64,000 nt of DNA from Escherichia coli (GCF_024502345.1 NZ_JALDNN010000001.1); one strand, 5' to 3'; counted from the first letter of the stretch, positions 37,812 through 39,183 are shown. A program made the numbers and translations. Notes: generated by a model not told the origin, from the letters alone.

Positions 37812-38191
37812 TGGCAATATTAGGTTTAGGTATGGATATTGTGGAGATCGCTCGCATAGAAGCGGTGATCGCCCGATCCGGTGATCGCCTGGCACGCCGC
37901 GTATTAAGCGATAACGAATGGGCTATCTGGAAAACGCACCACCAGCCGGTGCGTTTTCTGGCGAAGCGTTTTGCTGTGAAAGAAGCGGCGGCAAAAGCGT
38001 TTGGCACCGGGATCCGCAATGGTCTGGCGTTTAATCAGTTTGAAGTATTCAATGATGAGCTCGGCAAACCACGGCTACGGCTATGGGGTGAGGCATTAAA
38101 ACTGGCGGAAAAGCTCGGCGTTGTAAATATGCATGTAACGCTTGCCGATGAGCGGCACTATGCTTGTGCCACGGTAATTATTGAAAGTTAA
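37811..38191 (+). CDS. acpS: Holo-[acyl-carrier-protein] synthase
   Basis: 126-aa [35 protein letters not shown]...; ATG overlaps the pdxJ stop (TAATG). Confidence 0.95.
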
Positions 38192-38217
38192 AAATAATAC
38201 CGTTCTATTTATAAAGT

Positions 38218-38256
38218 AAAACCCCCGAACTGGTAAGGAACGGGGGTTTTACTTTT
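38218..38256 (+). terminator. Rho-independent terminator of the rnc-era-recO-pdxJ-acpS cluster
   Basis: Hairpin AAACCCCCGAACTGGTAAGGAACGGGGGTTT followed by TACTTTTT. Confidence 0.7.
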
Positions 38257-38611
38257 TAACTTTAATTTTGTGCAGCATGCACCCTCAACAACAGCGATTA
38301 TGGATCAGTGTGCTTATCTTTTACAAGCAACTTGCAATCTTTAGCATAAAAACTCGAGCCTTTACGAAGAAAGCAATATTGATGGAAAGATTTACGTGAC
38401 CGCCAATTCGTAAGTACATTAAAATTGGCTTCGTTATTGAAGATTTTGCTGTGCTTTACACCATGCCACAGAATTCCCCCATTGAAACGAGTGGTGTCGT
38501 CAAAGCTCTGGTGTGGAGTGCAGCATGCACCCTCAATAACTCGCACGTTCAGTTTTGGGGAGATGTAAGGGCTAATCTGAACGGCTGCATTCCTTGTTTA
38601 AGGAAAAACGA

Positions 38612-38692
38612 ATGACTGATTGCCGATACCTTATTAAACGGGTCATCAAAATCATCATTGCTGTTTTACAGCTGATCCTTCTGTTCTTGTAA
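38612..38692 (+). CDS. shoB: Type I toxin ShoB (26-aa hydrophobic membrane peptide)
   Basis: ATG ACT GAT TGC CGA TAC CTT ATT AAA ... = MTDCRYLIKRVIKIIIAVLQLILLFL*; below the ORF-track size cut-off; lies in the acpS–yfhL intergenic region where shoB/ohsC sits in K-12; a GC hairpin follows. Confidence 0.8.
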   Translation: MTDCRYLIKRVIKIIIAVLQLILLFL

Positions 38693-38886
38693 CACCAGGA
38701 AACGTACTTAAGGCGCGTCCGGTGAACCAGCCTGGCGCGCCTTTAATAATTCTAAATAAGTGTTTGTGCAGATATTGTTGTAATTCATTAAATGAATAAT
38801 ATTTATAATAACATTACGTAAATAAATATAATAACCTGAAGGTTTGCACAATAAAGTCATCAATATTCTGCTCCGGGAGCAGAATA

Positions 38887-39183
<297 letters not shown>

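What the first reader, a model, noticed from the sequence alone, without database searches (positions are those of the whole stretch)
38270..38536. Perfect 19-bp direct repeat bracketing the shoB upstream region
GTGCAGCATGCACCCTCAA occurs twice in direct orientation (38270..38288 and 38518..38536), 248 bp apart, and each copy extends imperfectly (…CAACAACA versus …CAATAACT). Each copy contains a short imperfect palindrome (GTGCA-GCA-TGCAC). The pair frames the DNA between the acpS terminator and the shoB ORF. I cannot assign it to any repeat family I know; it could be a duplicated structural element of the shoB/ohsC transcripts, a pair of protein-binding sites, or a footprint of an ancestral duplication.
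Basis: seen in the sequence. Interest (0 to 1): 0.4.

Follow-up and report, generated by a model that had tools for sequence, protein, structure and literature searches.

The report
Known OhsC–shoB antisense pairing repeat
The 19-bp direct repeat is the already-described recognition site of a toxin–antitoxin pair: one copy is read backwards into the 5' end of the small RNA OhsC and the other forwards into the leader of the shoB toxin mRNA, so the two RNAs are complementary and the small RNA can silence the toxin.

Summary
GTGCAGCATGCACCCTCAA occurs exactly twice (38270-38288, 38518-38536), far beyond chance. It is not an unassigned repeat. Copy 1 is nt 2-20 of the antitoxin sRNA OhsC (minus strand 38289..38211; Rfam RF02495, 106.8 bits; same ends as MG1655 b4608). 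Copy 2 is about nt 87-105 of the ~180-nt shoB 5' UTR. Because the genes are divergent, a direct DNA repeat gives complementary RNAs. This is the published [quoted passage not shown] (Fozo 2008, cited in PMC3919570).

- The copies co-vary. In 5,426 complete E. coli genomes the joint counts are A/A 3,051, A'/A 506 (G·U), B/B 1,671 (a different 8-nt core in both copies), and mixed 1.
- Every single-base discrepancy is wobble-compatible, with RNA-specific polarity.
- Predicted cognate duplexes are -34 to -41 kcal/mol; non-cognate ones are about -22 to -26.
- The 19-mer is not dispersed (at most 2 places per genome, none on plasmids).

How binding 64 nt upstream of the SD blocks translation remains inferred (standby-site or structural blockade, plus RNase III). 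Verdict: already known, low interest. One modest by-product is two co-adapted specificity alleles whose block ends inside the two copies.

The parts
38211..38289 (-). ohsC gene (antitoxin sRNA OhsC, 77-79 nt); 5' end at 38289
   Evidence: Rfam RF02495 ohsC_RNA covers 38289..38213 at 106.8 bits against a gathering score of 50, E=7.6e-18. The MG1655 ncRNA ohsC b4608 (79 nt) maps to 38211-38289 in alignment A3. It folds as a single-stranded 5' end, a weak 5-bp hairpin and a strong terminator hairpin, z=-4.34.
38270..38288 (-). Repeat copy 1, transcribed as its reverse complement UUGAGGGUGCAUGCUGCAC = OhsC nt 2-20 (the antisense 'seed'); OhsC nt 1 (G, 38289) adds a G·U pair
   Evidence: The duplexfold result shows 20 contiguous pairs at -41.4 kcal/mol. 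Positions beyond the TSS (38290-38292) are freely polymorphic.
38297..38326 (-). ohsC promoter: -10 CATAAT (38302..38297), -35 TTGTAA (38326..38321)
   Evidence: The consensus scan gives the same hexamers as PMC11264685 Table 2. The published CpxR box CB2 overlaps this -35.
38396..38425 (+). shoB promoter: -35 GTGACC (38396-38401), -10 TAAAAT (38420-38425)
   Evidence: The consensus scan gives the same hexamers as PMC11264685 Table 2.
38432..38750 (+). shoB mRNA. The start is inferred from the -10 (±2 nt) and the end from the terminator hairpin at 38711-38743. Length ~320 nt.
   Evidence: The inferred length of 319-321 nt matches the published ~320-nt full-length transcript. A ~280-nt 5'-processed form is the only translationally active one (PMC5668327, PMC5397157).
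38518..38536 (+). Repeat copy 2 = OhsC target site, about nt 87-105 of the shoB 5' UTR, ending 63 nt before the SD and 76 nt before the AUG
   Evidence: It is an island of 7-8 allele-specific substitutions in an otherwise near-invariant leader. RNase III cleavage within the shoB/OhsC duplex region has been reported in vivo (PMC6212723).
38433..38463 (+). 5' end of the full-length shoB leader, predicted to clamp both edges of the target: nt 2-9 with nt 102-109 and nt 16-32 with nt 78-94. The allele-specific core nt 95-101 is left as an internal loop. This segment is removed by the published ~40-nt 5' processing.
   Evidence: The MFE equals the centroid at -40.6 kcal/mol, z=-4.19, 0/200 shuffles. 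The pair nt9-nt102 (38440-38533) covaries A-U 37 / G·U 19 / G-C 31. This is a prediction, not an experiment.
38590..38605 (+). Local hairpin UUCCUU-GUUU-AAGGAA that sequesters the shoB Shine-Dalgarno sequence (AAGGAA, 38600-38605)
   Evidence: The hairpin appears in almost all predicted structures. RBS AAGGAA is 100% conserved (PMC11264685 Table 2).
38613..38693 (+). shoB ORF, 26-aa hydrophobic toxin MTDCRYLIKRVIKIIIAVLQLILLFL
   Evidence: The ATG ORF lies inside the 38594..38692 entry. It aligns with the RefSeq CDS 'type I toxin-antitoxin system toxin ShoB', differing only by synonymous changes.
38209..38259 (.). Bidirectional terminator shared by acpS (+) and ohsC (-)
   Evidence: Inverted repeat I1 has 19-nt arms at 95% complementarity. 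It forms the 3' hairpin of the Rfam model.

Best explanation
[quoted passage not shown] (Shown here: the anatomy.) The single-stranded 5' end of OhsC pairs with this site to give a 19-bp duplex plus one terminal G·U. (Shown here: complementarity, energy and co-variation. Published: OhsC abolishes ShoB toxicity, and RNase III cuts in the duplex region.) The site ends 63 nt before the SD, so repression cannot be direct RBS occlusion. (Inferred:) in the full-length mRNA the first ~32 nt clamp the edges of the target and the SD sits in a UUCCUU/AAGGAA hairpin, which makes the mRNA inert. The published ~40-nt 5' processing removes the clamp and frees the region as a ribosome-loading (standby) or activating element. 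OhsC bound there blocks that element and marks the mRNA for RNase III cleavage. The central 8 nt of the repeat act as the specificity core.
For: Anatomy: Rfam RF02495 matches at 106.8 bits with its 5' end at 38289. MG1655 b4608 maps to 38211-38289 and has an identical 19-mer pair. The promoter hexamers equal the published ones. The inferred transcript length of ~320 nt equals the published one.

[quoted passage not shown] Divergent antitoxins are complementary to long 5' UTRs away from the RBS (PMC4147584). RNase III sites are found in the shoB/OhsC duplex in vivo (PMC6212723).

Co-variation: 84 contigs show no mixed types. In 5,426 genomes the counts are A/A 3,051, A'/A 506, B/B 1,671, B-ohsC with A-shoB 1, and A-ohsC with B-shoB 0. 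In the formal count 97.2% of cells are paired against 21-53% in slid registers, with 5 pairs changed on both sides and 0/500 shuffles reaching that. All one-sided changes give G·U or U·G.

Energies: cognate duplexes are -41.4, -41.0 and -34.2 kcal/mol; non-cognate ones are -21.5 to -26.5.

The copy-2 core is a substitution island in a near-invariant leader. The leader fold has z=-4.19, and pair nt9-nt102 covaries AU/GU/GC.
Against: Nothing contradicts the pairing role. The weaknesses concern the downstream mechanism. Predicted SD opening after 5' truncation, and re-closing when the target is blocked, is clear for the window sequence folded as the whole mRNA. It is not robust for the B and A' alleles or for a leader truncated at nt 200. 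The target is only about 0.3-0.4 unpaired in predicted processed forms, so a fully single-stranded standby site is not demonstrated. The co-variation rests on few independent events: one A-to-B block change plus about five one-sided changes, and the two copies are tightly linked. Type B carries a fixed internal U·U mismatch. One natural strain lives with a mismatched pair. The primary paper (Fozo 2008) could not be read here.
Confidence: 0.95

Rival explanations
1. The copies are a pair of binding sites for a DNA-binding protein (for example CpxR, which regulates both genes) that brackets the divergent promoters.
For: CpxR binds this intergenic region at two predicted boxes and affects shoB and ohsC mRNA levels (PMC9600279; PMC11264685). 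Each copy contains a short palindrome.
Against: The published boxes lie in the promoter region (CB2 overlaps the ohsC -35 at 38321-38326), not at the repeats, which are in transcribed DNA 20 and 86 nt downstream of the two starts. The 19-mer lacks the CpxR consensus GTAAA-N5-GTAAA (established knowledge; read). A DNA site would not show the observed polarity: the ohsC copy is always C where the shoB copy is T, never the reverse, which gives G·U in RNA. A single regulator could not easily follow a 7-nt change of core in a third of strains. The palindrome is not preserved in type B.
Confidence: 0.02
2. The repeat is a neutral relic of a local duplication (or is kept identical by gene conversion) and has no function of its own.
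For: The similarity runs 3 nt past the OhsC start (AAC/AAC), which RNA pairing does not explain. A contiguous 5-nt identical change in both copies (ACCCT to GATTC) looks like copying rather than stepwise compensation.
Against: A neutral relic would decay independently in the two copies. Instead the two cores are coupled in 5,228 of 5,229 classified genomes. The copy-2 core is a substitution island inside a leader that is otherwise almost invariant. One-sided changes are all wobble-compatible. The 3 extra matching bases upstream of the OhsC start are highly polymorphic in copy 1. Published genetics show that OhsC represses ShoB. Copying between the repeats may be HOW the alleles changed in concert, but it does not replace the function.
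Confidence: 0.02
3. Each copy acts mainly as an intramolecular hairpin (GUGCA-loop-UGCAC) that stabilises or processes its own transcript, and the inter-RNA complementarity is incidental.
For: The Rfam model includes a 5' hairpin over this palindrome. A small hairpin is predicted in OhsC of types A, A' and B.
Against: The hairpin is weak (4-5 bp with a 3-nt loop) and shifts register in type B. In the shoB leader the same bases are predicted to pair elsewhere. Half of the 19-mer (CCCUCAA / UUGAGGG) lies outside the hairpin yet co-varies between the two RNAs.
Confidence: 0.03
4. Sub-rival on mechanism: OhsC pairing acts only by creating an RNase III substrate that destroys the mRNA, with no effect on ribosome loading or leader structure.
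For: RNase III cleavage sites are detected in the duplex region in vivo (PMC6212723). RNase III is needed for OrzO to suppress ZorO toxicity in the sister system (PMC4147584).
Against: Reviews list ShoB/OhsC under 'inhibit protein synthesis' (PMC4147584 Table 1). In tisB/IstR-1, blocking the standby site is sufficient. The target sits in the region that 5' processing would unmask.
Confidence: 0.2

Closest known systems
shoB-ohsC type I toxin-antitoxin locus of E. coli K-12 (ShoB b4687 / OhsC b4608; Rfam RF02495; Fozo et al. 2008)
   Same: It is the same locus. The synteny is identical (pdxJ-acpS-ohsC-shoB-yfhL), the 19-mer is identical in both copies, the ShoB protein is identical, the promoter hexamers and the OhsC ends are the same, and the published 19-nt complementarity corresponds to the repeat.
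   Different: There are only 8 point differences from MG1655 over 506 nt, none in the repeat. No complete E. coli genome is identical over 38150-38800.
tisB/istR-1 (E. coli)
   Same: The antitoxin gene is divergent. About 20 nt at the 5' end of the sRNA pair far upstream of the RBS in a long 5' UTR. The primary transcript is inert and a 5'-processed form is active. RNase III cleaves the duplex.
   Different: For tisB a standby-site mechanism has been demonstrated experimentally; for shoB it is only proposed. tisB is LexA-controlled. The sequences are not related.
zorO/orzO (E. coli O157:H7)
   Same: The arrangement is divergent, with 18-nt 5'-end pairing to a ~174-nt 5' UTR. The pairing region varies between alleles and specificity is set by a few nucleotides. 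Repression needs at least 15 contiguous pairs, or 17 with one mismatch.
   Different: zor/orz is often multicopy, and its variation is explained as avoidance of crosstalk. shoB/ohsC is single-copy, yet it also has two non-cross-pairing alleles.
dinQ/agrB (E. coli)
   Same: The sRNA is divergent, the target lies in the 5' UTR away from the RBS, and activation is by processing.
   Different: It has two agr sRNA genes and is SOS-regulated. The sequences are unrelated.

Membership tests
shoB-ohsC type I toxin-antitoxin locus (Rfam RF02495 ohsC_RNA + ShoB) | sRNA matching the curated ohsC covariance model above its gathering score | tested here: met
   106.8 bits against a gathering score of 50, full length 1-77, at 38289..38213 on the minus strand.
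shoB-ohsC type I toxin-antitoxin locus (Rfam RF02495 ohsC_RNA + ShoB) | Adjacent, divergently oriented ORF for the 26-aa hydrophobic ShoB peptide with SD AAGGAA | tested here: met
   The ORF at 38613-38693 encodes MTDCRYLIKRVIKIIIAVLQLILLFL. It aligns with RefSeq CDSs named ShoB with only synonymous differences.
shoB-ohsC type I toxin-antitoxin locus (Rfam RF02495 ohsC_RNA + ShoB) | 19 nt of complementarity between the OhsC 5' end and the shoB 5' UTR | tested here: met
   OhsC nt 2-20 is the reverse complement of 38518-38536. The duplex has 20 pairs including a terminal G·U, at -41.4 kcal/mol. The literature statement is in PMC3919570.
shoB-ohsC type I toxin-antitoxin locus (Rfam RF02495 ohsC_RNA + ShoB) | Own sigma-70 promoters for both genes in the shared intergenic region | tested here: met
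   The hexamers found by the scan are identical to those tabulated in PMC11264685.
shoB-ohsC type I toxin-antitoxin locus (Rfam RF02495 ohsC_RNA + ShoB) | Chromosomal position between acpS and yfhL | tested here: met
shoB-ohsC type I toxin-antitoxin locus (Rfam RF02495 ohsC_RNA + ShoB) | ShoB overproduction is toxic and OhsC represses it | not testable with these tools
   Published for K-12 (Fozo 2008, as summarised in PMC5668327 and PMC5397157). The window sequence is identical in all functional elements.
Antisense pairing under selection (generic criterion for a functional RNA-RNA duplex) | Compensatory or wobble-preserving co-variation of the two strands across relatives | tested here: met
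   5 pairs changed on both sides, 97.2% of cells paired, 0/500 shuffles reaching that, and 1 mixed genome in 5,229.
Standby-site antisense control (tisB/IstR-1 type) | The target is a single-stranded ribosome-loading region, unmasked by 5' processing, well upstream of a structured RBS | tested here: inconclusive
   The position (63 nt upstream of the SD), the predicted 5' clamp removed by processing, and the SD hairpin all fit. However, predicted accessibility of the target in truncated forms is only 0.3-0.4, and the SD predictions are unstable.
Dispersed bacterial repeat families (REP/BIME, ERIC/IRU, etc.) | Many copies scattered over the genome | tested here: not met
   There are at most 2 places per genome in 3,728 E. 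coli genomes that carry the A-type 19-mer, and none on plasmids. There are only 2 copies in the window, even allowing 3 mismatches. The viral-contig hits are this same locus.
CpxR operator | Tandem GTAAA-N5-GTAAA box located in promoter DNA | tested here: not met
   There is no GTAAA motif in the 19-mer. The published boxes lie in the promoter region, with CB2 over the ohsC -35.

The most novel reading that the evidence does not exclude
E. coli maintains two co-adapted, mutually non-cognate 'specificity alleles' of a single-copy type I toxin-antitoxin locus: A/A' in about 68% and B in about 32% of classified genomes. The hyper-divergent block (~16% over 38279-38442, plus an 8-nt island at 38526-38533) starts inside copy 1 and ends inside copy 2. 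Linkage disequilibrium collapses within about 25 bp to the left and about 100 bp to the right. Only 1 of 5,229 genomes is a recombinant with mismatched OhsC and shoB. This would mean epistatic selection against uncoupling antitoxin and target, making the locus a small recombination-incompatibility module. PMC11264685 states explicitly that pairing potential across the variable region had not been validated for shoB-ohsC. The cis covariation nt9-nt102 would additionally be the first comparative support for a 5'-end clamp on the OhsC target.
Probability: 0.35. Interest if true: 0.45.

Novelty: already known. Interest (0 to 1): 0.2.

Why it matters
As given, the finding re-discovers from raw sequence the recognition element of a characterised toxin-antitoxin pair. 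It is a useful sanity check: a direct repeat flanking divergent promoters is the DNA signature of a trans-pairing antitoxin, as in tisB/istR-1, zorO/orzO and dinQ/agrB. It is not new biology.

The by-products have modest value for specialists.
- They give a population-scale answer to a question left open in 2024, namely whether the variable pairing regions of shoB and ohsC stay complementary. They do, in more than 99.9% of classified genomes.
- They define two apparently orthogonal alleles.
- They point to one natural strain (Z1323CEC0015) with a mismatched pair that could be tested directly.
- They provide a comparative hint for how the full-length mRNA hides the target.

Tried and rejected
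- Fozo 2008 (PMC2597788) and Fozo 2012 (doi 10.4161/rna.22568) are not held. Statements about experiments are therefore taken from later open papers.
- The literature search 'ohsC + compensatory' returned only hippocampal-slice (OHSC) papers.
- The 'anti-anti-SD switch' idea held that the 5' half of the target pairs with the anti-SD after processing and that OhsC reverses this. It looked clean for the window sequence folded as the whole mRNA. It was not reproducible with the B and A' alleles or with a shorter leader, so it is downgraded to a weak hypothesis.
- The weaker Rfam hits (Thr_leader, miRNA families, Ref1C, BSnc120, and ohsC on the + strand) are all below their gathering scores and sit on terminator hairpins. 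They were rejected.
- The 82-aa minus-strand ORF 38298..38546 and other short ORFs spanning the repeats lie across both promoters and both non-coding transcripts. They were not pursued and no homology or conservation test was run on them.
- The E. albertii and E. whittamii representatives were cut at contig ends before copy 2, so between-species coupling rests on four other Escherichia lineages.
- The metagenome anchor forces 38471-38501 to be invariant, so those 31 nt must be discounted in the polymorphism density.

Full report
**1. Observation**

The 19-mer GTGCAGCATGCACCCTCAA is present at 38270-38288 and 38518-38536 on the + strand, 248 bp apart. Allowing three mismatches on both strands gives no further copy in the 64-kb window, and none of 100 dinucleotide shuffles gives two matches. 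The chance expectation for any exact 19-mer direct repeat is 0.007 for the window and 7e-5 within 300 bp. An unbiased repeat scan returns the same pair as its top family, extended to 23 nt at 22/23 identity.

**2. What lies there**

The window carries recO-pdxJ-acpS, then an intergenic region, the 26-codon ORF MTDCRYLIKRVIKIIIAVLQLILLFL (38613-38693), and yfhL on the opposite strand.

- Rfam's ohsC_RNA model (RF02495) matches the minus strand at 38289..38213 with 106.8 bits, against a gathering score of 50.
- In E. coli MG1655 the curated ncRNA ohsC (b4608, 79 nt) and shoB (b4687) occupy the same positions. By alignment, ohsC corresponds to window 38211-38289, and MG1655 has the same 19-mer in both places.
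- The promoter-like hexamers found by the scan are exactly those tabulated for the two genes in PMC11264685: shoB -35 GTGACC and -10 TAAAAT at 38396-38425 (+), and ohsC -35 TTGTAA and -10 CATAAT at 38326-38297 (-).
- A shoB start near 38432 and the terminator hairpin ending near 38750 give about 320 nt, the published size of the full-length shoB transcript.

Copy 1 is therefore transcribed as its reverse complement, as nt 2-20 of OhsC. Copy 2 is transcribed in sense, as about nt 87-105 of the 180-nt shoB leader.

**3. Interpretation**

The two genes are divergent, so a direct repeat in DNA produces complementary RNAs. [quoted passage not shown] 2008). Reviews group shoB-ohsC with tisB-istR-1, zor-orz and dinQ-agrB as loci whose divergently transcribed antitoxins pair within a long 5' UTR, away from the start site (PMC4147584; PMC5397157). 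RNase III cleavage sites have been detected in vivo in the shoB/OhsC duplex region (PMC6212723). The predicted duplex has 20 contiguous pairs, including a terminal G·U with OhsC nt 1, at -41.4 kcal/mol.

**4. Tests of function by comparison**

*The repeat is not dispersed.* In the 3,728 complete E. coli genomes that carry the A-type sequence there are at most two places per genome and none on plasmids. The only two 'viral' contigs with the 19-mer contain this same locus, with both copies 248 bp apart.

*The copies co-vary.* An alignment of E. coli genomes showed a second allele (B). In B the ohsC copy reads GTGCAGCACACGATTCCAA and the shoB copy GTGCAGCACTCGATTCCAA, while the surrounding leader is almost unchanged. 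In 84 loci from genomes and metagenomes with both copies, the haplotypes were:

- 35 A/A;
- 32 B/B;
- 12 A'/A, with C in the ohsC copy against T in the shoB copy at position 9, which gives G·U;
- 3 with two such G·U pairs, and 1 with another G·U;
- 1 with a 1-nt deletion on a low-coverage contig;
- none mixed.

Chimeric two-part megablast queries gave joint counts over 5,426 complete genomes. Every possible 28-mer seed in these queries spans the diagnostic core.

| ohsC copy / shoB copy | Genomes |
|---|---|
| A / A | 3,051 |
| A' / A | 506 |
| B / B | 1,671 |
| B / A | 1 |
| A or A' / B | 0 |

The single exception, strain Z1323CEC0015, is a true recombinant. Its crossover lies in a shared 18-nt stretch between the promoters, and its shoB gene is intact. 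Other rare variants are again wobble-compatible (EC16, A19G in copy 2, giving U·G) or are indels (FCI1).

A formal count on the nine distinct gap-free haplotypes gives 97.2% paired cells against 21-53% for slid registers. Five pairs changed on both sides, and no shuffle out of 500 reaches the observed values. Cognate duplexes are -41.4 (A), -41.0 (A') and -34.2 (B, with one internal U·U) kcal/mol. Non-cognate combinations are -21.5 to -26.5 kcal/mol with at most 13 contiguous pairs. That is below the 15 contiguous, or 17 with one mismatch, found necessary in the sister system zorO/OrzO (PMC11264685).

The polarity of all one-sided differences (C in copy 1, T in copy 2, never the reverse) is explained by RNA pairing and not by any DNA-level reading.

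**5. Population structure (by-product)**

In 85 full-length loci, sites in complete association with the A/B type run from 38279 (inside copy 1) to 38442. They then reappear only as an island at 38526-38533 (inside copy 2). The rest of the leader and the ORF have no A/B-fixed difference.

All four gametes are seen at 38256/38257, about 22 bp to the left, and at 38632, about 100 bp to the right, with r² below 0.1. The dimorphic block therefore begins and ends inside the two pairing sequences.

The B marker TTGTAC in the ohsC -35 is the variant reported at 33.1% by PMC11264685. [quoted passage not shown] Non-coli Escherichia representatives are A'/A-like, so B is either derived or imported.

Caveats:
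- There are few independent mutational events.
- The two copies are tightly linked.
- The metagenome anchor forces 38471-38501 to be invariant.
- I could not read Fozo 2008 or Fozo 2012 to see whether the compensated O157-type allele was already noted.

**6. How repression works**

What is shown: the target ends 63 nt before the SD and 76 nt before the AUG, so OhsC cannot mask the RBS directly.

What is published: only the ~280-nt 5'-processed mRNA is translated, the mechanism is unstudied, and a standby site has been suggested.

What is predicted here:
- Leader nt 1-114 fold with z=-4.19 into a structure in which nt 2-9 pair with nt 102-109 and nt 16-32 pair with nt 78-94. This clamps both edges of the target and leaves the allele-specific core (nt 95-101) in an internal loop.
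- The SD lies in a UUCCUU/AAGGAA hairpin.
- The pair nt9-nt102 covaries as A-U (37), G·U (19) and G-C (31) with the alleles. Other variable pairs are mostly wobble changes, with a few rare disruptions.
- Removing about 40 nt would delete both 5' strands of the clamp and free the target region.

My best reading is that the freed region is needed for ribosome loading or for an activating fold. OhsC occupies it, and RNase III then cleaves the duplex.

A more specific switch model, in which the target pairs with the anti-SD after processing and OhsC reverses this, fitted the window sequence. It was not robust across alleles or construct lengths, so it is offered only as a weak hypothesis.

**7. 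Rivals**

- Protein-binding sites. The published CpxR boxes lie in the promoter region, not at the repeats. The 19-mer lacks the CpxR motif, and the wobble polarity argues for RNA.
- Neutral duplication relic. This is refuted by the coupling, and by the substitution island in a conserved leader. Copying between the repeats may still be how the concerted change arose.
- Independent hairpins. The palindrome is weak, shifts register in type B, and covers only half of the co-varying segment.

**8. Verdict**

The repeat is real and functional, but it is the already-described OhsC-shoB pairing determinant of a known type I toxin-antitoxin locus. Novelty is 'already known' and interest is low. The allele-level co-variation, the block boundaries, the natural mismatch strain and the cis covariation are modest additions worth a note to specialists.

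Noticed in passing
window 38279-38533; loci L003, L004 and 30 metagenome loci: There is a common second allele (B, about 32% of E. coli, including O157:H7 strains) of the ohsC 5' end, both promoters and the shoB target core. It is about 16% divergent over 38279-38442, while the shoB leader and ORF are near-identical. The block boundaries fall inside the two repeat copies, and linkage breaks down just outside.
   Followed up: yes
L097 (NZ_CP148423.1, E. coli Z1323CEC0015) 490-945: This is the only genome of 5,229 classified that combines a B-type OhsC with an A-type shoB target. It is a recombinant with its crossover in ACAAGCAACTTGCAATCT. The predicted duplex is only -21.5 kcal/mol, and shoB is intact. 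It amounts to a natural antitoxin-mismatch strain.
   Followed up: partly
window 38440 and 38533 (shoB mRNA nt 9 and nt 102): These two positions co-vary in cis (A-U 37, G·U 19, G-C 31 loci). This supports a predicted helix between the extreme 5' end of the full-length shoB mRNA and the 3' edge of the OhsC target.
   Followed up: partly
L010 (CACVCF010000286.1, 'Terasakiella sp. PR1', 231 nt): A 231-nt contig in an alphaproteobacterial assembly is identical to the E. coli ohsC region. It is probably contamination of that assembly.
   Followed up: no
L101 (IMGVR_UViG_3300029590_000195) and L102 (IMGVR_UViG_2526164634_000010): Two contigs in the viral collection carry the chromosomal ohsC-shoB locus with both repeat copies 248 bp apart. 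They may be misclassified host DNA or a host flank of a prophage.
   Followed up: no
window 38170-38255 (+) and 38209-38259: The ohsC Rfam model also hits the opposite strand at 37.9 bits, below its gathering score. The cause is the near-palindromic bidirectional terminator shared by acpS and ohsC. PMC11264685 reports the same artefact.
   Followed up: yes
L001-L004, L097-L099 versus L100: PGAP-annotated RefSeq E. coli genomes list shoB but no ohsC feature. Only MG1655 (b4608) carries the ncRNA annotation, although the Rfam model scores far above threshold.
   Followed up: no
window 38150-38800: In the rows listed, the highest identity among 5,426 complete E. coli genomes was 97.4%, over 96% of this stretch. 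The window has one private allele among 85 loci, at 38393 in the column numbering (the same substitution reads as 38395), plus several rare ones (38207, 38689, 38696). The nearest relative is a metagenome contig (L068). The source strain was not identified.
   Followed up: partly
window 38798-38835 and 38862-38888: Between the shoB terminator and yfhL there is an AT-rich 15-nt direct repeat (AATATTTATAATAAC / AATAAATATAATAAC, 23 bp apart). There is also a perfect 13-nt inverted repeat, which is terminator-like on the minus strand, downstream of yfhL.
   Followed up: no
L099 (NZ_CM172811.1, E. coli FCI1): This B-type locus has a 2-nt insertion inside the shoB target (GCAGCAGCCTCG) and a ShoB protein variant (WP_000128775.1). 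The insertion would create a bulge in the duplex.
   Followed up: no
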